Shown here piece after piece: positions 22,437-36,779 of a stretch of DNA of 64,000 bases. Made by a program: the position numbers and the translations under genes. The notes under the pieces are model-generated. The model did not search any database. It saw only the letters and a program-made list of their open reading frames with translations, and was not told the DNA's origin. Origin of the DNA: Candidatus Fermentibacteraceae bacterium. Its GTDB lineage: Bacteria; Fermentibacterota; Fermentibacteria; Fermentibacterales; JCC-6. Position 1 is the stretch's first letter, and the number at the start of each line of letters is the position of its first letter. The stretch is taken from assembly GCA_016936235.1 (NCBI GenBank), contig JAFGPK010000042.1, forward strand, positions 32-64,031. Direction: 5' to 3'.

Positions 22437-23303
22437 ATGTACCAGATCCTGCACAAGGAAAAACTGGGGCCTGACATCTGGCTCTACAGGATCAAGGCGC
22501 CTGATGTGGCCAGATACAGGAAACCGGGTCAGTTCGTTATTGTGAGGATCTCGGAGAACGGGGAGAGGATACCGATAACAATCGCCGATGTAGACAATGA
22601 GGAGGGTAGCGTGACCCTCATCGTCCAGGCGGTGGGGAAGACCACCCTGGAGATGACGGGGCTTAATCCGGGGGATGCGGTTCCCACGGTGACGGGTCCC
22701 CTTGGCAAACCGACGCATATCGAGAACGTTGGCAGGGTCCTCTGCGTTGGCGGCGGGATCGGCATCGCTCCCCTCTACCCTGTGGCAAGGGGTATGAGGG
22801 AGGCGGGTAATCACGTGACCAGCATAATCGGGGCCAGGTCAGCCGACCTGCTCATTCTGGAAGACAGGATGAGGGATGCCAGCCACGAAATGATAATCAC
22901 CACCGACGACGGCACGAAGGGATGCAGAGGCTTCGTCACCGACTCCATCAGGAATCTGATAGACATCGGAGACAGTTTTGACCTGTGCGTGGCAATGGGT
23001 CCTCCGATCATGATGAAATGCGTCTGTGACATGACAAGGGAGTACGGCATCCCCACTATTGTCAGCCTCAACCCGATAATGGTCGACGGAACCGGGATGT
23101 GCGGCTGCTGCAGGGTGACAGTCGGAAGTGCGGTGAAATTCGCCTGCGTGGACGGCCCGGAGTTCGACGGCCACCAGGTGGATTTCGACGAACTGATAAC
23201 CCGCCTTTCCACCTACAGGAACCAGGAGAGGGAGTCACTCGAACGCTTCGGTTCGGAGTCCGGCTGCAGGCTTGATGCTGTGCTGGAAGGGGGTCGGGCG
23301 TGA
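22437..23303 (+). CDS. nfnA: Ferredoxin-NADP+ reductase-like FAD/NAD(P) plus [2Fe-2S] subunit (NfnA/SudB/GltD-partner type)
   Basis: 288 aa. MYQILHKEKLGPDIWLYRIKAPDVARYRKPGQFVIVRI...ERIPITIADVD matches the PyrK-like flavoprotein fold. GGGIGIAPLYP is the NAD(P)-binding loop. The C-terminal MVDGTGMCGCCRV is the [2Fe-2S] motif. Its stop overlaps the next gene start at 23300-23303. Confidence 0.8.
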   Translation: MYQILHKEKLGPDIWLYRIKAPDVARYRKPGQFVIVRISENGERIPITIADVDNEEGSVTLIVQAVGKTTLEMTGLNPGDAVPTVTGPLGKPTHIENVGRVLCVGGGIGIAPLYPVARGMREAGNHVTSIIGARSADLLILEDRMRDASHEMIITTDDGTKGCRGFVTDSIRNLIDIGDSFDLCVAMGPPIMMKCVCDMTREYGIPTIVSLNPIMVDGTGMCGCCRVTVGSAVKFACVDGPEFDGHQVDFDELITRLSTYRNQERESLERFGSESGCRLDAVLEGGRA

Positions 23304-24763
23304 ACGTCAAGGACAGGCTTAAGCTGCCGCCGGTGGCCATGCCGGAGCAGGATCCGAAAGCAAGGATCCGCAACCTGGACGAGGTTCCCCTGGGCTATAC
23401 ACCCGAGATGGCCATGGAGGAGGCGAAAAGGTGCCTTCAGTGCCGGACTCCATTCTGCGTTGAGGGCTGTCCTGTGGGAATAGACATTCCAGGGTTCATC
23501 AAGTTCATAGAGGACGGCGATTTCAAGGGCGCCATAAGGAAGATGAAGGAGAGGAACCTCCTTCCTGCGGTGTGCGGCAGGGTGTGTCCGCAGGAGGAGC
23601 AGTGTCAGCTGTTCTGCACGGTGGGCAAGGCGAAGAAGGATCCATGCAAGTCGGTGATGATAGGCAAGCTTGAGAGATTCATAGCGGACTGGGAGCGGAC
23701 AAGCGGTGAACAGGAGAAACCTGCGCCGGTGAAGCCGTCCGGGAAGAAAGTGGCCGTCATCGGAGGGGGTCCGGCGGGTCTCACTGTTGCGGGGGATCTT
23801 GTGAAGTACGGCCATGATGTCACGGTATTCGAAGCTCTTCACAAGGCTGGAGGAGTTCTGGTGTACGGTATTCCGGAGTTCCGACTGCCCAAGGAGATAG
23901 TACAGAGCGAAGTGGACTACCTTGAGAGTCTGGGAGTGAAGTTCAGGTACAATTACGTAATCGGCAAGACACTTCCGATCGCGCACATACTTGAGAATTA
24001 CGATGCTGCCTTTATAGGGACAGGAGCCGGTCTTCCCAGGTTCATGCGCGTGGACGGCGAGAACCTCCTCGGAGTGCTGTCCGCCAACGAATACCTTACC
24101 AGGGCCAACCTCATGAAGGCTTACGACTTCCCGCGAACGGACACGCCTATCGTCAAGGGGAAGAAAGTGATAACCGTCGGCGGCGGTAACGTCGCCATGG
24201 ACTGCGCGAGGACCGCCCTCAGGATGGGGGCCGAGAGATCTCTCATCGTCTACCGCAGAGCCGAGGAGCAGATGCCGGCAAGGCTGGAGGAGATCCATCA
24301 TGCGAGGGAAGAGGGGGTGGAGTTCCACCTCCTACAGAATCCTGTGAGACTGGTGGGGGATGATAAGGGCTGGATATGCGGCGCCGAGGTGATAAAAATG
24401 GAACTCGGGGAGCCGGATTCATCAGGCAGGCGAAGACCCGTCCCCGTTGAGGGAAGCGAGTTCATCGAAGAGACCGATACTCTGATAGTAGCCATCGGCA
24501 ACAGCCCGAACCCCCTGGTTCCCGAGTGTTTCCCCGAGCTGGAAGTCACAAGGTGGGGAGGCATTGTGGTCAACGAGATCACCGGACAGACCTCGGTGCC
24601 CGGCGTATTCGCGGGAGGGGACATTGTCCTGGGCGCGGCCACAGTTATTCTGGCCATGGGGCACGGCCGAAGGGCGGCGCGGGCCATGAACCTGTATCTC
24701 AGCTCCGGCCGATGGGTGGACCTCGACAAGGCTATGGACCTCTGCAGGGCAGAAGTGCACTGA
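23300..24763 (+). CDS. nfnB: GltD-family NADPH-dependent FAD/[4Fe-4S] oxidoreductase (NfnB/SudA, 'glutamate synthase small chain'-like)
   Basis: 487 aa. CLQCRTPFCVEGCPVGIDIPGFI and LPAVCGRVCPQEEQCQ are the two cluster motifs. KKVAVIGGGPAGLTVAGDL and VITVGGGNVAMDCART are the two Rossmann loops. It ends with PGVFAGGDIV. The NfnAB versus SudAB versus GltD naming cannot be resolved by eye. Confidence 0.8.
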   Translation: MNVKDRLKLPPVAMPEQDPKARIRNLDEVPLGYTPEMAMEEAKRCLQCRTPFCVEGCPVGIDIPGFIKFIEDGDFKGAIRKMKERNLLPAVCGRVCPQEEQCQLFCTVGKAKKDPCKSVMIGKLERFIADWERTSGEQEKPAPVKPSGKKVAVIGGGPAGLTVAGDLVKYGHDVTVFEALHKAGGVLVYGIPEFRLPKEIVQSEVDYLESLGVKFRYNYVIGKTLPIAHILENYDAAFIGTGAGLPRFMRVDGENLLGVLSANEYLTRANLMKAYDFPRTDTPIVKGKKVITVGGGNVAMDCARTALRMGAERSLIVYRRAEEQMPARLEEIHHAREEGVEFHLLQNPVRLVGDDKGWICGAEVIKMELGEPDSSGRRRPVPVEGSEFIEETDTLIVAIGNSPNPLVPECFPELEVTRWGGIVVNEITGQTSVPGVFAGGDIVLGAATVILAMGHGRRAARAMNLYLSSGRWVDLDKAMDLCRAEVH

Positions 24764-24818: not shown

Positions 24819-24841
24819 GCTGAATCGCTCCGCGATTCAGC
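24819..24841 (+). promoter_or_regulatory. Perfect 10-bp hairpin between the nfnB-like gene and the REC gene
   Basis: GCTGAATCGC (24819-24828), TCC loop, GCGATTCAGC (24832-24841). A smaller GAATGC/GCATTC hairpin (about 24794-24808) precedes it. The hairpin is followed by CGTTGACTTTG with no clear U-tract, so it may be an attenuator, an RNA processing site or a weak terminator. Confidence 0.3.
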
Positions 24842-24917
24842 CGTTGACTTTGAACCCCCCGGAACTTAGCGTTCCACCATTCTCGGGACAGATCAAGCTG
24901 AATAGAGGAGGCATCAA

Positions 24918-25904
24918 TTGAAAGGCCGCGTACTGATCATCGATGACGAGGCGGAGATCCGCCGCAATCTTACAGTTGGGCTTACGCAGGAAGGCTATTC
25001 CGTCGTAGCATGTCCAGACGGCATTTCCGCCATACACGAGCTGAACCAGGCCAGGGAGAAGGGAACAGCCTACGATTACCTGGTAACCGACATTTTCATG
25101 CCCGACATAGATGGCTTGAAGATACTCAAGGTCATCAAGAACCAGTACGCAGACCTTCCTGTTCTGGTCATCACCGGTTTTGGTGACGAGCGATTGATGC
25201 TAACGGCACTTTCCGAGCACAATACCGGTTACCTCGACAAACCTTTCGAAATATCCGACCTGGTGGAGGCCCTCGAGGAGCTGTCCCCGGGGAAGACGGA
25301 TACAGAGGTTCCCGATGCAGCCTTCGATGAGGAGATGAGGGAATCGGTCAGCGCCTACCTTACTGTGAAGATAATTGACACCGACAGGAGCATGGAGATA
25401 TACGACACCCTCTACGGCATGAAGGGGATAGCCTCCTGCGACGCCGTGAGAGGAGACTTCGATATAATCCTCCTTGCCCAGGCCTCATCGAACAGTGAGA
25501 TCGCGGAAGTATTCAGCAGGGTCAGAGCCATGGAGGGTATCGAGGTGGTATCCATGTCCGAGGTGGAACGGCCCAAACTGGACAGGGATGTGGACCAGTT
25601 CATCGAGACCTACCAGGAAGCGGTCAAGAGAGAAGCGCAGGCGGAAGCCCGCCGGCAGCCCGGCACCATGAGTTATATTATCGTCGACATAGATCCGGAG
25701 TCGATCCAGCAGATATTCACCACGGTGTTCTTCATCGACGAGGTCGTCTTCTGTGACGTGATAGAGGAGGGCACCAAGCTCGTGGGTATGATCACGGGCC
25801 ATGGCGCCATGGGCAAGACGCCCCGGATCATCCAGAAGCTCAATCAGATCGACGGTGTCCTCAGGGTTCGAGAAGCCAAGGTGATCAAGCTCATCGAGGA
25901 CTGA
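24918..25904 (+). CDS. Response-regulator receiver protein with two C-terminal AsnC/Lrp-ligand-binding-like (RAM/ACT-like) modules and no DNA-binding domain
   Basis: TTG start 7 nt after an AGAGGAGG box. The REC motifs are VLIIDDE, YLVTDIFMPDIDG, VLVITGF and YLDKPF. The C-terminus has two ~75-aa modules (AYLTVKIIDTDRSMEIYDTLYGMKGIASCDAVRGDFDIILLAQA...AMEGI and SYIIVDIDPESIQQIFTTVFFIDEVVFCDVIEEGTKLVGMITG...QIDGVLRV) that resemble Lrp/AsnC effector domains by eye. Confidence 0.7.
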   Translation: MKGRVLIIDDEAEIRRNLTVGLTQEGYSVVACPDGISAIHELNQAREKGTAYDYLVTDIFMPDIDGLKILKVIKNQYADLPVLVITGFGDERLMLTALSEHNTGYLDKPFEISDLVEALEELSPGKTDTEVPDAAFDEEMRESVSAYLTVKIIDTDRSMEIYDTLYGMKGIASCDAVRGDFDIILLAQASSNSEIAEVFSRVRAMEGIEVVSMSEVERPKLDRDVDQFIETYQEAVKREAQAEARRQPGTMSYIIVDIDPESIQQIFTTVFFIDEVVFCDVIEEGTKLVGMITGHGAMGKTPRIIQKLNQIDGVLRVREAKVIKLIED

Positions 25905-25986
25905 CGGGCAACTGTCTTCTGCAATACTGACATCATCCATCGTATCTCCTGATTCCCGCCGAACAGGGGAGGAGACCCGGAAGGGA

Positions 25987-26496
25987 GTGATGAAAACGGC
26001 TGCCAAGAACGAGGAATTCAGCTACAGACTGTGGAGGTACGAGGGACAGCCGGGAGAGCTGATACCTCTGCTCCAGTCTGCCCAGGAGCACTTCGGTTAC
26101 ATTCCAAGACGGGCCATCAGCTATATAGCCGGTGTCACCGGAATACCGGAATCCGACATCTACGGAGTCATAACCTTTTACAGCCAGTTCAGGCTCAAGC
26201 CCATGGGCAAGTATGTAATCAGGGTATGCGCAGGGACCGCGTGTCATGTATCCGGGGCGAAACTGATCAGGGAGACCATCGAGGATGAACTCGGTGTAGA
26301 AGTAGGTGACACCACCGATGACGGCCTTTTCACACTGAACACGGTGGCCTGCATCGGGTGCTGCTCCCTTGCACCGGTGATGATGGTGAACGACGACACC
26401 CATGGCAGACTTACACCCGCTTCGGTCCGCAAGATCCTTCGCAATTACAGGAAGAAGGCGGCCGAGACCTCTGACACGGCGGCAGGGGCTTCCTGA
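25987..26496 (+). CDS. NuoE/HydC-like thioredoxin-fold [2Fe-2S] subunit
   Basis: 169 aa. LLQSAQEHFGYIP, VIRVCAGTACHVSG and ACIGCCSLAPVMMVND are the 24-kDa-subunit cluster motifs. The start is GTG or ATG at 25987/25990 after a GGAAGGGA box. Confidence 0.85.
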   Translation: MMKTAAKNEEFSYRLWRYEGQPGELIPLLQSAQEHFGYIPRRAISYIAGVTGIPESDIYGVITFYSQFRLKPMGKYVIRVCAGTACHVSGAKLIRETIEDELGVEVGDTTDDGLFTLNTVACIGCCSLAPVMMVNDDTHGRLTPASVRKILRNYRKKAAETSDTAAGAS

Positions 26497-26550
26497 GCCA
26501 TTCCGATGGTTTGAAAGCGGTTCTACATTGAAGAACGTCTGGAGCAACAT

Positions 26551-28332
26551 ATGAAGAAGATAGTAGTTGGAATGGGAACCTGCGGACTCTCAGCAGGAGC
26601 CCAGGCGACCTACGACAGGCTGGAGGAACTGGCCCGGGAGCATCCTGATGCATGCGTCCTTGCACGGACAGGCTGCATCGGGATGTGCTACAGGGAGCCA
26701 CTGGTCGAGATAAGGGAAGATGATCGAAGGGTCATCTACGGAGGTGTCACTCCCGAGTCGGCCGATGAGATCTTCCGGAAACATGTCCTGGATGGCTTGG
26801 TGATAGAAGACGATAACCTGGTCTATTCATGTGGTCCACGGGGCGAGACATCCGGTGCCGAATGCGGTTTCCTTGACCTTCAGGAGAGGATAGTCCTCCG
26901 CAATTGCGGTATGATCGATCCTGAATCCATAGGGGATTACGAGGAGGCCGGCGGGTATGAGGGACTCAGAAAGGCCCTGACCTCAATGACGCCTGAGGAG
27001 ATAATCGGCGTAATCAAGGCTTCAGGGTTGAGAGGCCGGGGTGGCGCCGGTTTCCCCACCGGACTGAAATGGTCCTTCGCAGCCTCCAGCAAAGGCGATC
27101 AGAAGTACGTGGTATGCAACGCGGACGAGGGCGACCCGGGTGCGTTCATGGACAGGTCCGTACTGGAGGGTGATCCCCACTCCGTGCTGGAGGGTATGAT
27201 CATATGCGGCAAGGCTATAGGCGCCTCCTTCGGATATGTCTACTGCCGTGCCGAGTACCCCCTGGCCATCAGGAGGCTTCAGATAGCCATATCCGCAGCC
27301 CGCGAGAAGGGTTACCTCGGAAGGGATATCCTGGGTTCCGGTTTCGATTTCGACCTGAAGATCAAACAGGGCGCCGGGGCCTTCGTCTGCGGGGAGGAAA
27401 CAGCTCTCTTCGCTTCCATCGAGGGCGAGAGGGGAATGCCTAGGATAAGACCTCCCTTCCCCGCCGAGAAGGGTCTCTGGAGAAAGCCCACAAACAACAA
27501 CAATGTAGAGACCTACGCCAATGTACCCTGGATCATTATCAACGGACCTGAAGCCTTCACGGCTCACGGCACCGAGAAGAGCCCCGGGACCAAGGTCTTC
27601 GCCCTGGCGGGCAAGGTCGTCCATGGAGGTCTGGCGGAAGTTCCAATGGGGACATCAATCGAGGAACTGGTGTTCAGGATAGGCGGCGGGATCAAGCAGG
27701 GCAAGCAGTTCAAGGCTGTTCAGATGGGCGGCCCGTCCGGAGGCTGCATCCCGGCCAGCATGAAGGACACTCCCGTGGACTTCGAGTCCATCCCGGCCAC
27801 CGGTGCTATCATGGGCTCCGGCGGGATGGTGGTGATGGACGAGGATACCTGCATGGTGGAGATAGCAAGGTTCTTCCTGGACTTCACCCAGAAGGAATCC
27901 TGCGGCAAGTGCACCTTCTGCAGGATAGGAACCCTCAGGATGCTGGAGATACTGGAGAGGATAACCAGAGGGGAGGGAGTCCCCGAGGACATCGAGAAGC
28001 TGGAGAAACTCTCCGTGCAGATCAAGGAGGCAAGCCTCTGCGGTCTGGGACAGACGGCTCCAAACCCGGTGCAGACAACCATCCGCTATTACATTGATGA
28101 GTACAGGGCACACATCTTCGACGGGAAATGCCCGGCCGGAGAATGTCAGGCCCTTGTGGAGTTCAGCATCGATCCCGAGAAATGCGTCGGGTGCACTCTC
28201 TGCGCCAAAAACTGTCCTGTGAACGCGATCTCGGGCAAGGTGAAGGAAGTACATGTCATAAATGGTGAAACCTGCGTCAAGTGCGGCAAATGTATAACCA
28301 GCTGCAATTTCGGCGCTGTAGTCACTAGGTAG
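26551..28332 (+). CDS. NuoF/HydB-like FMN/NADH-binding subunit with an N-terminal Trx-like [2Fe-2S] domain and a C-terminal 2x[4Fe-4S] ferredoxin domain
   Basis: 593 aa. The N-terminal cluster domain is GMGTCGLSAGA...TGCIGMCYREPLV. It also has GLRGRGGAGFPTGLKW, VCNADEGDPGAF and ESCGKCTFCRIGT. The C-terminal ferredoxin domain is CVGCTLCAKNCP...CVKCGKCITSC. This extended architecture matches the HydB-type subunits of flavin-based electron-bifurcating complexes. Confidence 0.85.
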   Translation: MKKIVVGMGTCGLSAGAQATYDRLEELAREHPDACVLARTGCIGMCYREPLVEIREDDRRVIYGGVTPESADEIFRKHVLDGLVIEDDNLVYSCGPRGETSGAECGFLDLQERIVLRNCGMIDPESIGDYEEAGGYEGLRKALTSMTPEEIIGVIKASGLRGRGGAGFPTGLKWSFAASSKGDQKYVVCNADEGDPGAFMDRSVLEGDPHSVLEGMIICGKAIGASFGYVYCRAEYPLAIRRLQIAISAAREKGYLGRDILGSGFDFDLKIKQGAGAFVCGEETALFASIEGERGMPRIRPPFPAEKGLWRKPTNNNNVETYANVPWIIINGPEAFTAHGTEKSPGTKVFALAGKVVHGGLAEVPMGTSIEELVFRIGGGIKQGKQFKAVQMGGPSGGCIPASMKDTPVDFESIPATGAIMGSGGMVVMDEDTCMVEIARFFLDFTQKESCGKCTFCRIGTLRMLEILERITRGEGVPEDIEKLEKLSVQIKEASLCGLGQTAPNPVQTTIRYYIDEYRAHIFDGKCPAGECQALVEFSIDPEKCVGCTLCAKNCPVNAISGKVKEVHVINGETCVKCGKCITSCNFGAVVTR

Positions 28333-28341
28333 GAGCGGCCG

Positions 28342-31300
28342 ATGGAGAAGATCAGACTCAAGATCAACGGCAGGGAGATCGAGGCCACTCCGGGGAAGAC
28401 TATTCTTGAAGTGGTCCAGGAGAACCAGCTTGATGATATCCCGACATTGTGTCATTCACCGGAGCTGGAACCCTACGGCTCCTGCTTCGTGTGCGTGGTG
28501 GAGGTCAAGGGAAGGAACAACCTGGTTCCCTCCTGCGCCACCCGCGTTGCTCCCGGCATGGAGGTGGAGACAAGGAACGACAGGATAACGGCCTCACGGA
28601 AGACCGCCCTCGAGCTCCTTACATCCAACCATTACGCCGACTGTGTATCACCCTGCATGGAGGGATGCCCGGCCGGGGTGGACGCCCAGGGATACATCGC
28701 CCTCTCGGCCATGGGCCAGTACCGAAAGGCCGTGGACCTCATACGGGAGACGAACCCTCTGCCAGCGGTGTGCGGAAGGGTCTGTGTACGGAAGTGCGAG
28801 GAAGAGTGCAGAAGGCAGGACATAGATGCTTCGGTGGCGATCAACAACATAAAGAGGTTCCTGACGGATTCACCGGATGCATACGCCACGGAGCCTGAGT
28901 GCGAACCTGACACCGGCAAGACCGTCGGAATAATAGGCTCCGGACCAGCGGGTCTCACCGCTGCGTGGTTCCTCGGGAAGAGCGGCATCAAGCCGGTGAT
29001 ATACGAAGCAAAGGAACGCACCGGCGGCATGCTGCGCTACGGGATCCCCGAGTACCGTCTGCCCGACGATGTTCTTGACCGCGAGGTTGAGTACATCTGT
29101 CGCGCGGGTGCCGAGATCAGGTGCGGTGTGCGGGTAGGCGCGGACATTTCCCTCGATGAGCTCAGGCAAAGGCACGACGCGGTCTTTGTGGGTCCCGGCG
29201 CCTGGACAGGCAAACCCATGAGAGTGGAAGGCGAGTACGATACCGAGGGTGTGGTCACCGGCGCCGATTTCCTGGTCGAAAAGGCCGACAACCCGGAGCC
29301 GCTTTCGGGTACGGTTGTGGTGGTTGGGGGCGGCAACACGGCCATGGACGCCGCCAGGACGTCCTGGAGGCTCAATGCCGACAAAGTGATAGTCCTGTAC
29401 AGGAGGACGAAGGCCCAGATGCCCGCCGATGCCATGGAAATTGAGGATTGCCTCGAGGAAGGCATCGAGATAATGGAGCTGGCAGCTCCCACCGGGATAG
29501 TCAAGAAGGACGGGAAGCTCGCTGCCCTCCAGTGTCAGAGGATGAAGCTCGGCGAACCCGATGCGTCGGGAAGGCGCAGGCCTGTCCCCATCGAAGGCGC
29601 CGAGTTCGAGCTGCCGTGCGACTTGGTCATCTCGGCCATCGGACAGGACACGGTTCTCGAAGGGCTGTTGGAAGCCGGCAATCTGGAGCTTGACCTCACA
29701 CGATGGAACACCTACGTGATCGACGGGAAGACCATGAAGACCAATGTGGAGGGAGTCTTTGCCGGCGGAGACGCCGCAGATGACGGTCCCACGGTGGCAA
29801 TCGACGCAATTCGTGACGGCCGGAAGGCCGCCGGGGCGATCAGGGCATGGCTTCTCGGCGAGGATCTACCGGCGAAGCCCTTCGCAGTGAGGAAGGAGTT
29901 CTGGTCAAAGCCGGGTCACGCTGAGCTTGGTGATATCATGGAGTCTCCCCGCCACGAAGTGCATCTCATAGATGTCGACGAAAGACGGAACAGCTTCAGG
30001 GAGGTTTCCAACGGTTTCGAGCCCGAGGACAACGTCCACGAGTGCGACAGGTGCCTCTCCTGCGGCTGCGTGAGGTTCGACGACTGCAGGCTCAGGCTTT
30101 ACGCCGAGGAGTACGGCGTGGACATGGAGCACTTCAAGGGATACGCCAGGAAGCACAGGGTTGACGACCGTCACCCGTACATCTCCTACGACCCCAACAA
30201 GTGCATACTGTGCGCGAGGTGCATCAGGACCTGCGCCAGGGTCCTGCCGGTGTCCGCCCTGGGCCTTGTCAACAGAGGTTTCAGGACTGAGATGCGGCCG
30301 GCCATGAACGACCCTCTGGTCGCCACGAGCTGTGTCAGCTGCGGCAACTGCGTGGATTCGTGTCCCACCGCGGCCCTGACAGTGAAGTTCCCATTCCCCG
30401 GAAGGGCCTGCCTGGACAGCGAGGACGTGAAGACCCACTGCGCGTTCTGCTCCCTGGGATGCGAGGTCACGGTGAGTACTTTCGGAGAGGGAAGGTACTA
30501 CATCAAATCCTCCGGGGAGCCCGGCGACTACCTCTGCAGGTACGGCAGGTTCGGCCAGGAACTGTTCATCAAGCAGGAGAGGTACTCGGGACCTGTGAAG
30601 AAGGAAGGGTACTCCTATCGGCCGGTCAGCTTCAAGATAGCCTACTCGGGAATCGTTGAGGGGCTTCGCAGGATTGCGGATGATCACGGTCCGGAAAGCG
30701 TCGCCGTGTTCGTCTCCCCTGAGCTCACCAACGAGGAACTCAACCTGGCGGGCAGGATAGCAAGGGAAGGAATCGGAACCAGCAATATAGGTTCGCTGGC
30801 AATACTGTCCGGCGCGGGTCGTTCCGGGGTTCTGGATGAAGCGTTCGGGTTTACGGCCTCCACCTCGGACAGGAAATGCCTGAGGGAAGCCGACCTCATC
30901 GTATGCAACAACACCTCGCTGGAGTCCGACCACCTGATACTTGCGGTGGACGTTATCGAGGCCGTGCGTGATGGAGCCAAGCTGGTGGTGTCCAACTCCA
31001 TCCTGGATTCCACCGACGAGCATATGGCAGCCCTGGCCGTCGATCCCATGAGGGGGAGAGCCTCGATCTTCTGGAACGCCGTCATGCAGGTTCTCATAGA
31101 CGACGGAGACGTGAATCCGATGAATCTCAAGGGAGGGGAGGAATTCCTCCGTGACAGGAGTGCCTCCATCGAACTGGCGGCGGCAAAGGCAGGAGTGGGA
31201 GTCTCCGACATTTACGAGACAGCTGAGCTTCTGCGTTTCTCGGGCAACGTCGTCTTCATACACAGCCCCGACAGGGCCCAGGATGCCTCTCCGGACGACA

Positions 31301-32007
31301 TGGAGATATTCGCAGACCTCACCCTTCTTCTTCGTGATGCCGGAAAAACGGCCGACATTCTCCTGCCCAGGCTGCTGGCCAACAGCGCCGGCCTGGAGGT
31401 CATGGGGGCTGATCCGGCATTCATGACCGGAAGGAAACCGTCCGGTAAGGAGCTTCCCGGAGCTGCCTCCAGCCAGGAGCTCAGATTGCTGCTTGAAGAC
31501 GGGAAACTCAGAGGGGCGTTGATAATCGGCGAGAATCCCCTGGAGTACAACAGGCCCGGCTCGTGGTTCCGCAACACGGAGTTCATTGCAGCCATGGACT
31601 GGACCGATACGGAGACCACAAGGTTCGCAGACTACATTCTGCCAGGCACGACCTACCTCGAGACTCCCGGCACGAGGTGCAACTTCGAAGGCAGGCTTCT
31701 GGAATTCACCGGGGCGGTCATGCCACCTTCGGGCAAGTCCGGGACGGACGTCCTGCAGGGACTTGCCTCAGCCTTCGGAATCGATGCTTCGGTGGACGAC
31801 CTCGATGCCAGGGTCCTGGAGAACCTGGGCGACCTGGCGAGGATCTACTGGAACACCGGTCAGGAACGGCACTGGGACGGAAGCGGGAGGCTCGTACCCG
31901 TGTCTGCTGAAGCAAGGGCCGCATCCATACAGCCGCCCCTGACTCATTCCCAGGAGTACAGGCAGGAGATCCGCCAGGTAGGCACCGAACGCTACCGCGT
32001 AATCTAG
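28342..32007 (+). CDS. Fusion subunit: plant-type [2Fe-2S] domain, GltD-like NADPH/FAD oxidoreductase module, 2x[4Fe-4S] region and a degenerate molybdopterin-oxidoreductase (NuoG-like) domain
   Basis: 1221 aa. The domain order read from motifs is as follows. First, LCHSPELEPYGSCFVCVVEV...PSCAT ([2Fe-2S]). Second, CMEGCPAGVD, LPAVCGRVCVRKCEEEC, TVGIIGSGPAGLTAAWFL, VVVVGGGNTAMDAART and GVFAGGDAA (GltD-like). Third, CDRCLSCGC, CILCARCIRTC and CVSCGNCVDSCP. Fourth, HCAFCSLGCEVTV...LCRYGRFG (MopB 4Fe-4S). The following ~500 aa have no Cys/Sec-His catalytic pair and no H-cluster motifs. Confidence 0.8.
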   Translation: MEKIRLKINGREIEATPGKTILEVVQENQLDDIPTLCHSPELEPYGSCFVCVVEVKGRNNLVPSCATRVAPGMEVETRNDRITASRKTALELLTSNHYADCVSPCMEGCPAGVDAQGYIALSAMGQYRKAVDLIRETNPLPAVCGRVCVRKCEEECRRQDIDASVAINNIKRFLTDSPDAYATEPECEPDTGKTVGIIGSGPAGLTAAWFLGKSGIKPVIYEAKERTGGMLRYGIPEYRLPDDVLDREVEYICRAGAEIRCGVRVGADISLDELRQRHDAVFVGPGAWTGKPMRVEGEYDTEGVVTGADFLVEKADNPEPLSGTVVVVGGGNTAMDAARTSWRLNADKVIVLYRRTKAQMPADAMEIEDCLEEGIEIMELAAPTGIVKKDGKLAALQCQRMKLGEPDASGRRRPVPIEGAEFELPCDLVISAIGQDTVLEGLLEAGNLELDLTRWNTYVIDGKTMKTNVEGVFAGGDAADDGPTVAIDAIRDGRKAAGAIRAWLLGEDLPAKPFAVRKEFWSKPGHAELGDIMESPRHEVHLIDVDERRNSFREVSNGFEPEDNVHECDRCLSCGCVRFDDCRLRLYAEEYGVDMEHFKGYARKHRVDDRHPYISYDPNKCILCARCIRTCARVLPVSALGLVNRGFRTEMRPAMNDPLVATSCVSCGNCVDSCPTAALTVKFPFPGRACLDSEDVKTHCAFCSLGCEVTVSTFGEGRYYIKSSGEPGDYLCRYGRFGQELFIKQERYSGPVKKEGYSYRPVSFKIAYSGIVEGLRRIADDHGPESVAVFVSPELTNEELNLAGRIAREGIGTSNIGSLAILSGAGRSGVLDEAFGFTASTSDRKCLREADLIVCNNTSLESDHLILAVDVIEAVRDGAKLVVSNSILDSTDEHMAALAVDPMRGRASIFWNAVMQVLIDDGDVNPMNLKGGEEFLRDRSASIELAAAKAGVGVSDIYETAELLRFSGNVVFIHSPDRAQDASPDDMEIFADLTLLLRDAGKTADILLPRLLANSAGLEVMGADPAFMTGRKPSGKELPGAASSQELRLLLEDGKLRGALIIGENPLEYNRPGSWFRNTEFIAAMDWTDTETTRFADYILPGTTYLETPGTRCNFEGRLLEFTGAVMPPSGKSGTDVLQGLASAFGIDASVDDLDARVLENLGDLARIYWNTGQERHWDGSGRLVPVSAEARAASIQPPLTHSQEYRQEIRQVGTERYRVI

Positions 32008-32013
32008 GGGGAC

Positions 32014-32080
32014 GGAGGCTTTTTATCCGACGAGGGCGAATAAACAGCTCAAGCGTTTAAAGAGCCTCCAATTTTTCTTT
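32014..32080 (+). terminator. Possible long-loop terminator or element-end hairpin after the three-subunit operon
   Basis: GGAGGCTTTTT (32014-32024) pairs with AAAGAGCCTCC (32059-32069), giving 11 bp with one G-U pair, around a 34-nt loop. It is followed by AATTTTTCTTT. The loop is too long for a canonical terminator. It may instead be a subterminal hairpin of the adjacent transposase unit. Confidence 0.3.
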
Positions 32081-32136: not shown

Positions 32137-32784
32137 TCACGCACCAAGGTTGATACCTCGGGTCTTTTTCATCATGCTGATGTACCATTGTCGAGCCAGG
32201 GGTCTGTTCTTCCTAGTGGCATCCCTGATCTTGATGGCTATCATGGTCTCCGGTGCCATGGAAAGGTATTCCTTCCAGTCATTTACTTCGTTCAGAATCC
32301 TATTGTCCATGCTTACCAGAGGATCATGTTTTTCTACACCAACATGAAACCTTGCGCTGGACCAGTAGTAATCCCATGCCCTGTCGACCATTCCAGCTCT
32401 GACCGGATTCTGTTCCGTGTACCTGACCGCATTGTAGAGGTAGTGCGGACCCAGGGGACTGGAGCCGAACCTGTACTGCCAGAGATGTCCACTCCATTCG
32501 TTCCGGGTGTTCACATGATAGGCGTATCTGGAATGGGCAACCCTGAAGCATGAAGCAAATGAATCCTGCCTTTCGGGTATGGCAACAAGATGGACATGAT
32601 TATCCATCAGGCACCACGATAGGAAGGAAACTCCATACTCAGCTGCGGCCTCTCCAAGAAAGCCCAGGTACTTGAACCTGTCCGAATCGGAGAAGAAGAC
32701 GTTCTGGTTCCTGGTGCCGCGCTGGACAATATGATGTGGAAGCTCCGGTACCACTAATCTCGGTGTTCTTGCCATGGTAAACAT
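32137..32784 (-). CDS. HUH single-tyrosine (Y1) transposase of the IS200/RayT-like family
   Basis: 215 aa. The HUH motif is in CLMDNHVHLVAIP, and the catalytic-Tyr helix is AVRYTEQNPVRAGMV. The N-terminal PHHIVQRGTRNQNVFF is typical of the COG1943-type family. The true start may be ATG 32775 (MARTPRL). Confidence 0.8.
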   Translation of the reverse strand: MFTMARTPRLVVPELPHHIVQRGTRNQNVFFSDSDRFKYLGFLGEAAAEYGVSFLSWCLMDNHVHLVAIPERQDSFASCFRVAHSRYAYHVNTRNEWSGHLWQYRFGSSPLGPHYLYNAVRYTEQNPVRAGMVDRAWDYYWSSARFHVGVEKHDPLVSMDNRILNEVNDWKEYLSMAPETMIAIKIRDATRKNRPLARQWYISMMKKTRGINLGA

Positions 32785-32807
32785 ATGTATATGTAATTTA
32801 CATATGT
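32781..32807. repeat. 9-bp perfect inverted repeat overlapping the transposase start codon
   Basis: ACATATGTA (32781-32789), a 9-nt spacer TATGTAATT, then TACATATGT (32799-32807). It is AT-only apart from one G/C pair per arm. It may be an operator or an element-end hairpin. Confidence 0.4.
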
Positions 32808-33075
32808 CAATCCCTTTTCTGCTGACTGCGGATGATGCGCATGGAGTTATTAATTCCTCTGTGCAGTGACTGTGAAACGTGCATAGAGAGGATGCTATGC
32901 GATTGTCTCATGTTATTATAACTCCATTGACACTTTGTGGCATTGCTTCATATTTTTTTCCTGTGATTGAGGGAAAGGAGTATAAAGAGTAGAATGGTCG
33001 AGGGCTTATTCCGCAGCTGGTTGTCCGATTGACACTCGATTACCATCTGCAGAATGAAGAACGGGAGGTGTTTTC

Positions 33076-33423
33076 ATGAAAAGGATACTGCTGTGGGTTC
33101 TTCCCATCCTGGTTCTGGCCTCAATAGCCATGGCTGGTGGAGGAAGAGGTGGTATAGGAAGGGATCTCGATGTTGCGATAGAACTGACGGATGACCAGAT
33201 AAGGGAAATCACTGATAGCAGTTCTGGAAGAGCAACAGTTAAATTCACAGACGAACAGCTTGAGATCCTTGTTGATGCAGTTCCGGAGTTCGCTTTCGAA
33301 GAAGTCACCCTGGAGCCCATTCACATAAGCAGGGCTGGCGTAGTCGTACTCGGACTGCATGTGCCGGACAGCATTGTCGATCCCAGGTCGGACATCGAAA
33401 TGGACCCGCATCCGTCACCTTGA
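33076..33423 (+). CDS. Small secreted hypothetical protein
   Basis: 115 aa. A GGGAGG box lies upstream. The signal peptide is MKRILLWVLPILVLASIAMA. The mature part is acidic (DLDVAIELTDDQIREITD...FTDEQLEILVD). A good terminator hairpin follows. No family recognised. Confidence 0.55.
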   Translation: MKRILLWVLPILVLASIAMAGGGRGGIGRDLDVAIELTDDQIREITDSSSGRATVKFTDEQLEILVDAVPEFAFEEVTLEPIHISRAGVVVLGLHVPDSIVDPRSDIEMDPHPSP

Positions 33424-33451
33424 GCCGGCAGATACACACATGAACTTAATT

Positions 33452-33485
33452 GAGGGCGAGTTCCAAGCTTGCCCTCTTTCAATTA
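33452..33485 (+). terminator. Intrinsic terminator after the small secreted-protein gene
   Basis: GAGGGCGAGT (33452-33461) pairs with GCTTGCCCTC (33467-33476), giving a 10-bp stem with two G-U pairs and a 5-nt loop. TTTCAATTATT follows. Confidence 0.5.
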
Positions 33486-33741
33486 TTCAGAGGACATCAA
33501 TCCCTGGTGGGATCAACTGAGCTGTATGTCAATTATTTCAGCAATAAACATGACTACTCGAATATCCTTTCATCGATAACCGATGGAATAAGACAGATTA
33601 TTTACTTTCCAATATTTAACATCCTCCGTCCCCATTTAAATGGTACTGATATAATAAACGGTCAAGTTGGCTGGATCGGGCTGGAATGGGTTATGTTCCG
33701 GGTGAATTATAAATATGGACCAATCCAGGGAGGGGTGTACA

Positions 33742-34512
33742 GTGTTACGAGTGGAGGATCTCACAAAGGTATATGAAAAGGGCGGCAGGGGACGTAAAGA
33801 AACCGTAAGGGCCGTTGACGATGTCTCCTTCGATTGCAATCCGGGGGAGATATTCGGCCTTCTCGGTCCCAACGGCGCCGGCAAGACCACAACGCTTAGA
33901 TGTATCTCCACGCTCATTAAGCCCACCTCGGGAAACGTATACATAGACAGGTACAACGTGCTGGAGCACGAGAAGACAATACGGTCCAGGATAGGTTTCC
34001 TCACATCGGACATGAAGCTGGACGGGTTCTTCACTCCCGGCTACATGATGGACTACTTCGGCAGCCTGAACAAGATGGCGAAGGAAGAGATAGGCAGGAT
34101 GAAGGATCTTCTCTTCAATGAACTGCAGATGAATGATTTCGTGGACAAGAAGATAGACAAACTCTCGACAGGCATGAAGCAGAAGACCGCCATCGCCATC
34201 AGTCTTATCCACGATCCGGAGGTGATAGTCTTCGACGAACCCACAAACGGACTTGATGTGATTACATCCAAATCCGTGACGGATTTCCTCCGGAAGCAGG
34301 CCGGGAACGGCAAGACCGTTCTCATATCCACGCACATAATGAGCATTGCTGAGAAGCTGTGCAGCAGATTCGGAATACTTGTGAAGGGCGAGATAAAGGA
34401 ACTGGGGACTCTGAAGCAGATACTTGACCGCAACTCCACCGACAGCCTGGAGGATGTCTTCTTCGGTTACGTACTTCCCGAAGGCGGATCGGGGGTGGGC
34501 CATGCTCAGTGA
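33742..34512 (+). CDS. ABC transporter ATP-binding protein (ABC-2/NatA-like exporter type)
   Basis: Walker A is GLLGPNGAGKTT, the signature is LSTGMKQK, and Walker B is VIVFDEPTNGLD. I prefer GTG 33742, which lies 6 nt after a GGAGGGG box, over the track ATG at 33715. Confidence 0.85.
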   Translation: MLRVEDLTKVYEKGGRGRKETVRAVDDVSFDCNPGEIFGLLGPNGAGKTTTLRCISTLIKPTSGNVYIDRYNVLEHEKTIRSRIGFLTSDMKLDGFFTPGYMMDYFGSLNKMAKEEIGRMKDLLFNELQMNDFVDKKIDKLSTGMKQKTAIAISLIHDPEVIVFDEPTNGLDVITSKSVTDFLRKQAGNGKTVLISTHIMSIAEKLCSRFGILVKGEIKELGTLKQILDRNSTDSLEDVFFGYVLPEGGSGVGHAQ

Positions 34513-35731
34513 CAGCATGATAATCCTCAGGAAGGAGCTGAAGCGAATTTTCACCGACAGGCGAAGCCTGTTCTTCCTTGTGGTGCTTCCCCTGGTGATG
34601 CTTCCCGCCATGTACTCGGTCATGGCCAAGATGGGCGAGGTGAAGGACTCCGACATAGCCTCTTTCAGGTCGACGATCTGCCTGTACGAAGGCGAGGGTA
34701 ACAGCGGTTTCACAACCCCCTTCATTCAAACGCTTTCGGAGCTTAACACGAATCTCCGGCTGGTGGAGCGGGATGAACTGGATGCCGTGAAACAGTCAAT
34801 CACCGGCAGGGAGCAGGAACTGCTCATAGTCCTACCGGACCACTTCGGCGAAAGTCTGGAGGCCTGCGAGACCTTCGACATATCAGCCTTCTACAACTCC
34901 ACGGCTGACTACTCGGTATATGCTTACGAACAGTCTCAACAGGCTCTTCTTACCCTGACCGACGAGATAGTCAGGGAAAGGATTACCGGAAGGGGCATCT
35001 GTGATGACGTGCTCAGTGTCTTCACGATCAACGGGTCGATGCAGGAATACGACCTGGCCCCTGAGGGCAGCGTCATAGGAAAGGTTATCGGCATACTGCT
35101 GCCATTCTTCATCCTGATCTACCTGTTCGCCAACTCGATGAAGGTTGGTCTCGATTCGGTTGCCGGGGAGAAGGAGAGAGGGACACTGGCGATCCAGCTC
35201 GTGAACCAGGTGGACAGGTTATCAATAGTCATAGGCAAGATGCTCTCGGTGATGATGGCGGCGGTAGTCGGGGCCGCCAGTTCGGTGATCGGACTCATCA
35301 TCGCCTCCCGCTACTTCATAAGCATGTTCGGCGACGCGGGTCCGGCCATGTCCGGTTACAGCATGAGCACCCTGAGCATCCTGCAGTTCGCCATCGTGAC
35401 CATTCCCCTGGCCGTACTGGTGGCCAGCATAGTGCTGATAGTATCCACCTACGCAAGGAACGCCAAGGAGGGACAGGGCATGATAATGCCCATCTACTTC
35501 GCGGTGATGATAATGGGCATAGCTTCCATGCAGGCCGGGGACGTGGCGCCCGTATGGATGAGGTCGACACCGATATTCAATTCGCTGATCGTCCTGAAGA
35601 GCATCTTCATGCACGATGCCGCCTGGGGTTCGATAATGACCGCCGTGCTTTCAAGTGTAGTGGTCTCCGCTGTGATCATCTACCTGACCCTGAGGATGTT
35701 CAGCAACGAGAAGATACTGTTCAGGATATAG
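34502..35731 (+). CDS. ABC-2 family transporter permease (NatB-like)
   Basis: The start is ATG 34502 (MLSDSMIILRKELKRIFTDRRSLFF), overlapping the ATPase stop. It has one N-terminal TM helix, a ~170-aa extracytoplasmic loop and five or six C-terminal TM helices. This topology is typical of ABC-2 permeases. Confidence 0.75.
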   Translation: MLSDSMIILRKELKRIFTDRRSLFFLVVLPLVMLPAMYSVMAKMGEVKDSDIASFRSTICLYEGEGNSGFTTPFIQTLSELNTNLRLVERDELDAVKQSITGREQELLIVLPDHFGESLEACETFDISAFYNSTADYSVYAYEQSQQALLTLTDEIVRERITGRGICDDVLSVFTINGSMQEYDLAPEGSVIGKVIGILLPFFILIYLFANSMKVGLDSVAGEKERGTLAIQLVNQVDRLSIVIGKMLSVMMAAVVGAASSVIGLIIASRYFISMFGDAGPAMSGYSMSTLSILQFAIVTIPLAVLVASIVLIVSTYARNAKEGQGMIMPIYFAVMIMGIASMQAGDVAPVWMRSTPIFNSLIVLKSIFMHDAAWGSIMTAVLSSVVVSAVIIYLTLRMFSNEKILFRI

Positions 35732-35740
35732 GAGGACCAC

Positions 35741-36565: not shown

Positions 36566-36779
36566 AAGCACTCCTCATACGGCCATCGTCACTGTTGCCG
36601 TCATCCTTTGGTCCTGCGACGATCCGCAGGGGATCATAGCGTGGGAGACGAACCCCGCTAACGGCAGCTTCGTCTTCTACTTGCTGGAGACCGCGCGGCA
36701 GGAGAGTTGACCGCCGCCGAAGAAACTGTGTGGATCGGTCCGGAACAATCAACCCGGATTCTTGGAGGGTAAGACGATA

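What the first reader, a model, noticed from the sequence alone, without database searches (positions are those of the whole stretch)
24918..32007. REC protein with putative amino-acid-binding modules heading a NuoE/NuoF/GltD-fusion (Bfu-type) complex, next to canonical nfnAB and gdhA
A receiver protein lies directly downstream of the nfnAB-like pair and divergent from NADP-GDH. Its C-terminus looks like two AsnC/Lrp-type ligand-binding modules, and it has no DNA-binding domain.

Three genes follow:
- a NuoE-like subunit;
- a HydB-style extended NuoF-like subunit, with an N-terminal Trx-like 2Fe-2S domain and a C-terminal 2x[4Fe-4S] domain;
- a 1221-aa subunit carrying a GltD-like NADPH/FAD module.

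I see no H-cluster motifs and no catalytic Cys/Sec, so it is neither a hydrogenase nor a formate dehydrogenase. The best fit is the HydABC-related 'Bfu' family of electron-bifurcating enzymes. To my recollection an NfnABC-type member with a GltD-like module has been reported in that family.

Two features look unusual: two different NADH/ferredoxin/NADPH systems sit side by side, and the second is headed by an output-less receiver that might sense amino acids. Together with GDH, this suggests amino-acid-responsive control of the NADPH/ferredoxin pool.
Basis: partly seen in the sequence, partly recalled or inferred. Interest (0 to 1): 0.62.

Follow-up and report, generated by a model that had tools for sequence, protein, structure and literature searches.

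The report
Receiver–double-RAM partner of NfnABC transhydrogenase
A known electron-bifurcating NADH/ferredoxin/NADPH enzyme (NfnABC, also called Stn) is preceded here, and in bacteria of several phyla, by an undescribed small protein made of a phosphorylation receiver and two ligand-binding-type (RAM) modules, which looks like a dedicated regulator or accessory partner of the enzyme.

Summary
Genes 25987-32007 encode a NuoE-like, an extended NuoF-like and a 1221-aa GltD/NuoG-fusion subunit. Their best solved relatives are the three NfnABC/Stn structures (9bov, 8oh5, 9n5u). The enzyme is therefore a new member of a known kind.

The gene at 24918-25904 encodes a canonical receiver plus two homologous RAM (Lrp/AsnC-type) modules and has no DNA-binding domain.

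This REC-RAM2 family is small: 127 clusters at 50% identity among 1.84 billion representatives. It sits almost always directly upstream of nfnC-nfnB-nfnA:
- 77/77 genome loci of the window's clade;
- 24/25 loci of an Ignavibacteria-like clade;
- 9/10 divergent members sampled, including Myxococcales.

REC-fused members are usually followed by a cytoplasmic, Cys-rich histidine kinase and a sigma-54 activator. Two REC-less RAM2 proteins also head nfnCBA, without that kinase pair.

Canonical nfnSL is adjacent in two clades, in different arrangements. gdhA is adjacent only in the window's near relatives (16/46).

I found no description of this partner protein. Sensing of amino acids is untested, and the mechanism is inferred.

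The parts
24918..25904 (+). REC-RAM2 gene (328 aa, TTG start). The receiver spans residues 1-122, with D9, D10, D58, T86 and K108. RAM module 1 spans about residues 143-222, a linker helix 223-244, and RAM module 2 about residues 249-326.
24918..25283 (+). Receiver (REC) domain with an intact phospho-acceptor pocket.
   Evidence: PF00072, E 1e-24. (D9/D10/D58/T86/K108 invariant in 13 homologues). (D58 kept in 127/145 family members). (Foldseek: Spo0F, RR468, CheY at rmsd about 2 A).
25344..25583 (+). RAM module 1 (Lrp/AsnC ligand-binding-type fold), with the conserved C174-D175 and G179-D180-x-D182 motif.
   Evidence: PF01037, 27.9-30.4 bits, above the cut-off of 25
25662..25895 (+). RAM module 2. 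It is diverged but is the more conserved of the two within the clade. It carries C279-D280 and the invariant G313 in DGVLRVRE.
   Evidence: homologous modules of distant members hit PF01037 at 31-37 bits. (hhalign against module 1: 99.5%, E 3e-22)..
24844..24875 (+). Conserved promoter-like element upstream of the REC gene: TTGACT (24844-24849), a 17-nt spacer, then TAGCGT (24867-24872). The palindrome GGAAC-N5-GTTCC (24861-24875) overlaps it.
   Evidence: element conserved in the window's clade, about L002-L034. Read directly. Function is inferred, not shown.
24819..24841 (+). Perfect 10-bp hairpin between nfnL and the REC gene. It may be a weak terminator of nfnSL, and is seen only in the window and its closest relative.
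25987..26496 (+). nfnC (BfuC, NuoE-like; [2Fe-2S] ligands C81, C86, C122, C126).
   Evidence: (best solved hits 9n5u_C, 9bov_C, 8oh5_A)
26551..28332 (+). nfnB (BfuB, extended NuoF-like). It has an N-terminal Trx-like region, an FMN/NADH domain, the NuoF [4Fe-4S] cluster and a C-terminal 2x[4Fe-4S] domain.
   Evidence: (8oh5_B, 9n5u_B and 9bov_B at 828-837 bits, above all HydB chains)
28342..32007 (+). nfnA (BfuA, 1221 aa). It has an N-terminal [2Fe-2S] cluster, an NfnL/GltD-like FAD/NADPH module with the 3Cys+Lys cluster site (C109, C148, C152, K171), Fe-S clusters and a pterin-less Fdh/NuoG-like domain.
22437..24763 (+). Canonical nfnS (288 aa) and nfnL (487 aa), the FAD-type bifurcating transhydrogenase, directly upstream.
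   Evidence: 5jca_S, 4ylf_A; 4ylf_B, 5jca_L. Adjacent in 28/60 loci.
20810..22162 (-). NADP-specific glutamate dehydrogenase gdhA, divergent from nfnS. The link is specific to this lineage.
   Evidence: NF006929, 742.6 bits. (16/46 loci).
40108..42102 (+). Cytoplasmic histidine kinase of the module (no transmembrane segment). Its PAS-like region has conserved Cys residues (C132, C331, C342, C345). In most relatives it sits directly after nfnA.
42099..43457 (+). NtrC-type sigma-54 activator (REC-AAA+-HTH_8), paired with the kinase.
32137..39904 (.). About 8 kb that separates nfnA from the kinase pair in this window only. It holds an IS200-like Y1 transposase (32137-32784, minus strand), ABC-2 transporter genes and MoxR/VWA-like genes.
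   Evidence: Low GC at 32001-34000. Absent in L001 and most loci.

Best explanation
The unit is a conserved module: REC-RAM2, nfnC, nfnB, nfnA, then (ancestrally adjacent) a soluble histidine kinase and a sigma-54 enhancer-binding response regulator.

Shown by homology:
- nfnCBA encodes a Bfu-family NfnABC/Stn transhydrogenase, which couples NADPH to NAD+ and ferredoxin.
- REC-RAM2 is a phosphorylatable receiver fused to an intramolecular pair of RAM (Lrp/AsnC-type) modules that form a dimeric alpha+beta-barrel-like unit. It has no DNA-binding output.

Inferred:
- The RAM2 unit is the functional partner of the enzyme. It probably binds a small metabolite and acts through protein contacts on NfnABC, either on its activity or on its assembly. 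The reason is that REC-less RAM2 proteins also head nfnCBA operons that lack any kinase.
- In REC-fused versions, the kinase encoded in the module carries a conserved Cys cluster in a PAS-like domain and may sense redox state. It would phosphorylate both the sigma-54 activator (transcription of the operon) and REC-RAM2 (protein-level control). NADPH/NADH/ferredoxin balancing would then be set by both a metabolite and a phosphorylation signal.
- Where nfnSL is adjacent, the cell keeps two mechanistically different transhydrogenases side by side, and only the Bfu type is under this control.
For: Enzyme identity:
- All three subunits have the solved NfnABC/Stn complexes as their best hits.
- NfnA aligns with Csac NfnA over residues 2-897 and conserves the 3Cys+Lys cluster site.
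- The Cys motifs are complete.

REC-RAM2:
- The receiver pocket is intact.
- 35/35 diverse members hit PF01037, and both modules are homologous.
- The AF2 model has pLDDT 91.7 and pTM 0.86.
- In Foldseek, single modules match Lrp/AsnC RAM domains at rmsd 1.4-2.4 A. The pair matches tandem ferredoxin-like barrels, including NirDL.

Linkage:
- nfnC follows in 77/77 genome loci, nfnB in 67/67 and nfnA in 59/59.
- It follows in 24/25 loci of a second clade.
- It follows in 9/10 divergent members: Ignavibacteriales, Myxococcales, a 'Deltaproteobacteria' MAG and unnamed metagenome contigs.

Link between REC and the kinase:
- HK plus EBP follow in 36/47 and 10/10 loci, and in L082, L084, L091 and L092.
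- The two REC-less RAM2 loci (L087, L090) lack HK and EBP.
- The kinase Cys residues are conserved in 16-17 of 17 sequences across phyla.

Other:
- Fragments of the REC, nfnL, nfnB and nfnA genes occur in a metatranscriptome of the same study.
- Firmicutes-type Nfn-Bfu loci, and S. ovata stn, have no such gene. It is therefore an add-on, not a core subunit.
Against: - No biochemical or interaction data exist.
- The purified NfnABC/Stn complexes have three subunits (PMC11829005, PMC7483475).
- The ligand is unknown.
- No sigma-54 promoter is evident upstream in this window. The consensus scan gave 39 matches against 47.8 expected. In this clade the conserved upstream element looks sigma-70-like.
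- GG-N10-GC elements in other lineages occur at about the chance rate (and my own estimate).
- 18/145 family members lack the acceptor Asp.
- One member (L086) is not next to nfn genes, and L116 shows no nfnC in the 764 nt that follow.
- Gene order alone cannot distinguish control of the enzyme from control of transcription, or from a role in assembly.
Confidence: 0.5

Rival explanations
1. REC-RAM2 works only at the transcriptional level. It would act as a ligand-gated phosphate sink or connector that competes with the sigma-54 activator for the kinase, or binds that activator. In this way it would tune nfnCBA expression without touching the enzyme.
For: - REC-fused members nearly always occur together with HK and a sigma-54 EBP.
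- The receiver pocket is intact.
- Single-domain or output-less receivers commonly act as sinks or connectors (general knowledge of two-component systems).
Against: - REC-less RAM2 proteins head nfnCBA operons that have no kinase or EBP nearby (L087 and L090). The conserved function of RAM2 therefore cannot depend on the two-component pair.
- 18/145 members have lost the acceptor Asp.
Confidence: 0.2
2. RAM2 is a NapD-like maturation or assembly chaperone, or a loosely bound accessory subunit, for the long-form NfnA. NfnA carries a molybdopterin-oxidoreductase-like domain. The REC domain would merely gate the chaperone's availability.
For: - 7/35 members give weak NapD (PF03927) hits, best E 1.6e-7. 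The window protein scores 17-20 bits.
- RAM2 is tied to long NfnA forms of 1194-1264 aa that have the Fdh-like domain. Two Firmicutes loci with short NfnA lack it.
- The position as first gene of the operon fits an accessory factor.
Against: - The NapD scores are below that family's cut-off of 28 bits in the window protein, whereas PF01037 is matched by 35/35 members.
- NfnA has no Tat signal to bind. This rests on my reading of its N-terminus, which starts directly with the [2Fe-2S] domain.
- S. ovata Stn, with a long 128-kDa subunit, is made without such a neighbouring gene.
Confidence: 0.15
3. One reading: REC-RAM2 senses amino acids (glutamate or glutamine), and together with gdhA it sets the NADPH/ferredoxin pool according to nitrogen or amino-acid status.
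For: - RAM domains of Lrp/AsnC proteins bind amino acids (established knowledge of that family).
- gdhA and nfnSL are adjacent in the window's clade.
- The module's activator is of the NtrC type.
Against: - gdhA lies within 10 kb in only 16/46 loci and is absent from the other clades.
- No ligand residues could be tested.
- The fold also matches barrels that bind tetrapyrroles or other ligands.
Confidence: 0.15

Closest known systems
NfnABC / Stn (Bfu-family electron-bifurcating transhydrogenase): S. ovata StnABC (8oh5), C. saccharolyticus NfnABC (9bov), T. sibiricus NfnABC (9n5u)
   Same: - Same three subunits, in the same order.
- Same domain architecture, including the NfnL-like FAD module inserted in BfuA, the 3Cys+Lys cluster site and a pterin-less Fdh-like domain.
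- These are the best sequence matches among solved structures.
   Different: - Here, and in several Gram-negative phyla, the operon starts with a REC-RAM2 gene and is linked to HK plus a sigma-54 EBP.
- S. ovata stn lies between metVF and pabAB with no such gene (PMC7483475).
- Two Clostridia-type loci also lack it.
- The activity of this enzyme has not been measured.
Lrp/AsnC (FFRP) RAM domains and stand-alone RAM proteins (e.g. 1ri7, 2cyy, TTHA0845 2djw)
   Same: - Each module has the RAM beta-alpha-beta-beta-alpha-beta fold and matches PF01037.
- RAM domains pair into alpha+beta barrels, as the two modules are predicted to do within one chain.
   Different: - There is no HTH domain, so it is not an Lrp/AsnC transcription factor.
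- The two modules are fused in one chain behind a receiver.
- The ligand is unknown.
Siroheme decarboxylase NirDL/AhbAB and Cld/HemQ-type tandem ferredoxin-like barrels
   Same: These are the best whole-unit fold matches to the RAM2 pair (4ch7 and 4czc at TMq 0.57-0.60; HemQ/Cld at 0.5-0.55). NirDL is itself built from AsnC-like units.
   Different: - Sequence identity is low (9-12%) and rmsd is high (5-11 A).
- There is no HTH and no evidence of tetrapyrrole binding or catalysis.
Output-less or single-domain response regulators (CheY, Spo0F, CpdR, DivK)
   Same: It has a canonical receiver without a DNA-binding output, and its presumed action is through protein contacts.
   Different: It carries a ligand-binding-type double module. 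It is genetically locked to one enzyme operon across phyla.
Sensory systems of bifurcating [FeFe]-hydrogenases (HydS/Hfs-type kinase and phosphatase genes next to hydABC; from my own knowledge, not checked here)
   Same: A Bfu-family enzyme operon accompanied by dedicated signal-transduction genes.
   Different: The components differ: a sensory hydrogenase with PAS, kinase and phosphatase there, against REC-RAM2 with a Cys-rich soluble HK and a sigma-54 EBP here. The enzyme type also differs.

Membership tests
Bfu-family NfnABC/Stn transhydrogenase | Three adjacent genes for NuoE-like (C), extended NuoF-like (B) and NuoG-like (A) subunits. | tested here: met
   genes at 25987-26496, 26551-28332 and 28342-32007, all on one strand with gaps of 10-55 nt.
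Bfu-family NfnABC/Stn transhydrogenase | BfuB has FMN/NADH and NuoF [4Fe-4S] domains plus a C-terminal 2x[4Fe-4S] domain and an N-terminal Trx-like domain. BfuC has a [2Fe-2S] cluster. | tested here: met
   - Complex1_51K, NADH_4Fe-4S and a Fer4 dicluster at residues 539-590.
- end-to-end alignment (residues 2-590) with NfnB/StnB/HydB chains.
- Cys motifs 451/454/457/497, 545-555 and 575-585; NfnC Cys 81/86/122/126.
Bfu-family NfnABC/Stn transhydrogenase | BfuA carries an NfnL/GltD-like FAD-NADPH module between the N-terminal [2Fe-2S] domain and the Fdh/NuoG-like domain, with a 3Cys+Lys [4Fe-4S] site. | tested here: met
   C109/C148/C152/K171 align with Csac C108/C147/C151/K170, the ligands named in PMC11829005.
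Bfu-family NfnABC/Stn transhydrogenase | No H-cluster and no Sec/Cys-His formate dehydrogenase active site; the pterin domain is incomplete. | tested here: met
   - no Fe_hyd_lg_C or Molydop_binding hit.
- only three Cys after residue 732. At the expected active-site stretch (about 815-830, SLAILSGAGRSG) there is no Cys-His, and the ORF has no in-frame stop.
- The placement of the active site is by eye, not from a structural alignment.
Bfu-family NfnABC/Stn transhydrogenase | Closer to Nfn-type than to hydrogenase- or FDH-type Bfu members. | tested here: met
   - the NfnB/StnB chains score 828-837 bits, against 649-758 for HydB chains and 391-415 for FdsB.
- No tree was built.
Bfu-family NfnABC/Stn transhydrogenase | NADPH-dependent reduction of ferredoxin that requires NAD+ (bifurcating activity). 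| not testable with these tools
   This needs purified enzyme.
Canonical NfnSL (NfnAB) | A small FAD/[2Fe-2S] subunit and a large GltD-like 2x[4Fe-4S]/FAD subunit, adjacent to each other. | tested here: met
   - 5jca_S at 6e-104, 4ylf_A at 1e-92.
- 4ylf_B at 5e-170, 5jca_L at 7e-154.
- PRK06222 and TIGR01316, both above cut-off.
Two-component receiver (REC) domain | Acidic pocket, phospho-acceptor Asp, and conserved Thr/Ser and Lys. | tested here: met
   - D9, D10, D58, T86 and K108 are invariant.
- D58 is kept in 127/145 members, K108 in 132/145 and T/S86 in 127/145.
Lrp/AsnC (FFRP) transcription factors | An N-terminal HTH DNA-binding domain plus a C-terminal RAM domain. | tested here: not met
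   RAM is present, but no HTH appears in Pfam or NCBIfam. The protein shares the RAM domain only and is not a member of the regulator family.
RAM (PF01037) domain | A beta-alpha-beta-beta-alpha-beta fold that matches the family profile above its cut-off. | tested here: met
   - Module 1: 27.9-30.4 bits against a cut-off of 25.
- Module 2: no direct hit in the window, but homologous modules score 31-37 bits and hhalign gives 99.5%.
- Fold.
RAM (PF01037) domain | Binding of an amino acid or other small effector. | not testable with these tools
   There is no ligand assay.
NapD chaperones (PF03927) | A profile match above the cut-off (28 bits). | tested here: not met
   The window protein scores 14-20 bits.
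Sigma-54-dependent operon | A -24/-12 (GG-N10-GC) promoter upstream of the first gene. | tested here: inconclusive
   - no enrichment in the window, and no good site at 24763-24918.
- plausible TGG-N9-TTGC sites at about -55 to -70 in some lineages (L082, L047, L038, L041, L070), but at close to the chance rate.

The most novel reading that the evidence does not exclude
RAM2, with or without its receiver, is a previously unrecognised regulatory fourth component of long-form Nfn-Bfu enzymes. It would bind the complex and switch or tune electron bifurcation in response to a metabolite, and to phosphorylation by a Cys-cluster (possibly redox-sensing) kinase. This would be the first post-translational control device described for a Bfu-family bifurcating enzyme.
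Probability: 0.25. Interest if true: 0.8.

Novelty: new variant of a known kind. Interest (0 to 1): 0.6.

Why it matters
Bfu-type bifurcating enzymes set the NADH/NADPH/ferredoxin balance of many anaerobes, yet I found nothing in the papers searched on how the Nfn-type members are regulated.

A small protein family that is locked to nfnCBA across several phyla gives a concrete, testable handle on that question. So does its co-varying kinase and sigma-54 pair.

The repeated adjacency of canonical NfnSL and NfnABC also qualifies earlier reports that the two systems are almost mutually exclusive. Those reports concern acetogens (PMC7483475) and Thermococcaceae (PMC9304861).

The REC-RAM-RAM architecture adds a response-regulator output type that I could not find described.

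Tried and rejected
- The search for related loci with family alignments A2 and A3 failed because no stretch was conserved enough. I used single proteins instead.
- AF2 on the whole protein with a shallow alignment gave pLDDT 61, and its Foldseek hits were all receivers. Re-modelling the C-terminal part alone with 35 diverse sequences worked.
- A sequence search of the RAM2 part against the PDB gave only 1vk1, at E 0.005.
- The sigma-54 consensus scan of the window was not enriched. GG-N10-GC sites upstream of REC genes occur at roughly the chance rate.
- The terminator and promoter scan was not informative beyond the hairpin at 24819-24841.
- Rfam gave no hit in 20000-44000.
- A query rebuilt from the printed Csac NfnA alignment returned mainly short Clostridial variants, not the Csac locus itself. 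The Csac gene neighbourhood was therefore not checked.


Full report
**What is there.** Pfam and NCBIfam assign them as follows:
- 20810-22162 (minus strand): NADP-specific glutamate dehydrogenase.
- 22437-23303 and 23300-24763: the small and large subunits of a canonical NfnSL/NfnAB transhydrogenase. Their best solved relatives are P. furiosus NfnI and T. maritima NfnAB.
- 24918-25904: a 328-aa protein with a receiver domain and an AsnC_trans_reg (RAM) hit.
- 25987-26496: NuoE-like.
- 26551-28332: NuoF-like, with a C-terminal ferredoxin dicluster.
- 28342-32007: a 1221-aa protein combining Fer2_4, Fer4_20/Pyr_redox_2 (GltD-like), Fer4_Nqo3 and Molybdopterin domains.

No Rfam family matches the region.

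**The enzyme.** Each of the three subunits has as its best hits the three solved Bfu-type Nfn complexes: C. saccharolyticus NfnABC (9bov), S. ovata Stn (8oh5) and T. sibiricus NfnABC (9n5u).
- The B subunit scores 828-837 bits against these. It scores 649-758 against HydB chains and about 400 against FDH beta subunits.
- NfnA aligns with Csac NfnA over residues 2-897. It keeps the unusual 3Cys+Lys cluster site, C109/C148/C152/K171 against C108/C147/C151/K170 (ligands as named in PMC11829005).
- The Cys motifs for the other clusters are complete.
- The Fdh-like domain has no Molydop_binding domain, and no Cys-His or Sec at the expected active-site stretch.

This is therefore a standard long-form NfnABC/Stn and a new member of a known kind. 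Its activity was not, and could not be, tested here.

**The REC-RAM2 protein.**
- *Receiver.* It has the full phospho-acceptor pocket, D9, D10, D58, T86 and K108, invariant in close homologues. D58 is kept in 127/145 family members. There is no HTH or other output domain.
- *C-terminal half, sequence.* All 35 diverse family members tested hit PF01037. Module 1 of the window protein passes the curated cut-off. Module 2 does not hit directly, but the homologous module of distant members does, at 31-37 bits. The two module profiles align with 99.5% probability, E 3e-22.
- *C-terminal half, structure.* An AF2 model built on 35 diverse sequences is confident (pLDDT 91.7, pTM 0.86). It shows two beta-alpha-beta-beta-alpha-beta units joined by a long helix.
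- *Fold matches.* Foldseek matches single modules to Lrp/AsnC RAM domains at rmsd 1.4-2.4 A. It matches the pair to tandem ferredoxin-like barrels: NirDL siroheme decarboxylase, which is itself AsnC-like, and HemQ/Cld.
- *Conserved residues.* A Cys-Asp dyad is conserved at the same strand position in both modules: C174 in 139/145, D175 in 128/145, C279 in 134/145 and D280 in 133/145. G313 is invariant. I could not map these onto a pocket.

**How widespread, and in what company.** An exhaustive HMMER search with the RAM2 part found only 127 clusters (50% identity) among 1.84 billion representatives. Most are about 320-340 aa, with the module at the C-terminus. Some are about 190-aa REC-less forms.

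*Genome loci.* The genome collection gave 80 species-level loci at 69-92% identity, labelled Ca. Aegiribacteria, Sabulitectum, Fermentibacteria, Krumholzibacteriota and similar. Counting only loci where the contig extends far enough:

| Gene and position relative to REC-RAM2 | Loci |
|---|---|
| nfnC directly downstream | 77/77 |
| nfnB downstream | 67/67 |
| nfnA downstream | 59/59 |
| Kinase downstream | 36/47 (adjacent in 28) |
| nfnL immediately upstream | 28/60 |
| gdhA within 10 kb upstream | 16/46 |

*Divergent members.* Ten members, only about 20-35% identical in the RAM2 part, were looked up individually. Nine sit directly upstream of NuoE-NuoF-NfnA (1194-1264 aa). These are L082 (Ignavibacteriales), L084, L083 (Myxococcales), L085 ('Deltaproteobacteria'), L087, L090, L091 and L092, plus L001. 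One, L086, is an orphan.

*Second clade.* In metagenome contigs of an Ignavibacteria-like clade, nfnC follows in 24/25 loci and HK plus EBP in 10/10. Canonical nfnSL lies divergently upstream in six loci.

*Loci without the gene.* Two Clostridia-type Nfn-Bfu loci lack any such gene. S. ovata stn also lacks it, lying between metVF and pabAB (PMC7483475).

**The two-component add-on.** In L001 and most relatives, nfnA is followed at once by a kinase of about 660 aa and an NtrC-type sigma-54 activator. In this window the orthologues lie at 40108-42102 and 42099-43457. About 8 kb separates them from nfnA, carrying an IS200-like transposase, ABC-2 transporter genes and MoxR/VWA genes.
- The kinase has no hydrophobic segment. 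Its PAS-like region has C331-x10-C342-x2-C345 plus C132, conserved in 16-17 of 17 orthologues across phyla. That suggests a metal or Fe-S site. This is an inference.
- The two REC-less RAM2 genes (L087, L090) head nfnCBA operons without a kinase or activator.
- This co-variation is the main argument that the module's kinase serves the REC domain, and that the conserved role of RAM2 concerns the enzyme itself.

**Regulatory DNA.**
- Upstream of the REC gene, the window's clade conserves TTGACT-17 nt-TAGCGT, overlapped by a GGAAC-N5-GTTCC palindrome at 24844-24875. A strong AGAGGAGG ribosome-binding site and a conserved TTG start follow.
- A perfect 10-bp hairpin (24819-24841) lies just after nfnL. 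It occurs only in the window and its closest relative.
- No sigma-54 promoter is evident here. Candidate -24/-12 elements in other lineages occur at near the chance rate.
- A metatranscriptome from the same study holds short contigs on the REC gene (24965-25246) and on nfnL, nfnB, nfnA and gdhA. This shows presence only. DNA carry-over cannot be excluded.

**Interpretation.**
- *Shown.* The enzyme type, the REC-RAM-RAM architecture, and its exceptionally tight and phylogenetically broad linkage to nfnCBA.
- *Inferred.* RAM2 binds a small effector and acts on NfnABC by protein contact. The soluble Cys-rich kinase phosphorylates REC-RAM2 as well as the sigma-54 activator.
The last is weakened because gdhA is adjacent only in near relatives.

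I found no paper describing this protein family or any regulator of Nfn-Bfu enzymes in the library searched. This is absence of evidence within that library only.

**Verdict.** The enzyme is ordinary. The conserved REC-RAM2 partner, the HK/sigma-54 module and the recurrent pairing with canonical NfnSL are a new variant of a known kind, and they can be tested experimentally.

Noticed in passing
window 32137-39904: About 8 kb lies between nfnA and the kinase pair that is absent in relatives. It holds an IS200-like Y1 transposase (32137-32784, minus strand) in a low-GC stretch (GC 0.475 at 32001-34000), an ABC-2 transporter ATPase and permease (33715-35731), and MoxR-like AAA and VWA genes (36762-39904). 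It looks like a lineage-specific insertion that split the module.
   Followed up: partly
window 40108-42102 (kinase residues 132, 331, 342, 345): The soluble kinase of the module has C-x10-C-x2-C in a PAS-like region, plus a fourth Cys. These are conserved in 16-17 of 17 orthologues, including Ignavibacteria-like and other distant loci. This may be an Fe-S or Zn redox-sensing site.
   Followed up: partly
window 17752-20751: A 999-aa protein with a weak receiver-like N-terminus, a DUF5752 region and a PPDK_N (PEP/pyruvate-binding) domain. Homologues lie beside gdhA and nfnSL in many related loci. Its function is unknown.
   Followed up: partly
L094, L098, L112, L114, L115, L117 (Ignavibacteria-like metagenome loci): Canonical nfnS-nfnL lies upstream of REC-RAM2 on the opposite strand. 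In the window's clade the two are in tandem. The pairing of the two transhydrogenase types therefore recurs in a different arrangement.
   Followed up: partly
L087 9220-10395: In one REC-less RAM2-nfnCBA locus, a MoeA (molybdopterin molybdenumtransferase) gene follows nfnA directly. This raises the question whether some long NfnA forms still use a pterin.
   Followed up: no
window 10313-14807 (minus strand): A 2-hydroxyacyl-CoA dehydratase-like cluster: a BcrAD_BadFG activator ATPase (10313-11110), a fused 865-aa HGD-D protein (11107-13704) and a second HGD-D protein (13701-14807). This fits an amino-acid-fermenting lifestyle.
   Followed up: no
window 43462-47355 (minus strand): A 1297-aa protein with adenylate/guanylate cyclase, AAA_16 and many TPR domains, convergent with the sigma-54 activator.
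   Followed up: no
window 24918 and the homologous starts in L001-L081: The REC-RAM2 gene starts with TTG (or GTG) after a near-perfect AGGAGG in almost every locus. This is a conserved non-ATG start for the first gene of the operon.
   Followed up: partly
REC-RAM2 family members P0126, P0130, P0177 and 15 others: 18 of 145 full-length family members have lost the phospho-acceptor Asp. Some are therefore pseudo-receivers while still linked to nfnCBA, for example L085.
   Followed up: partly
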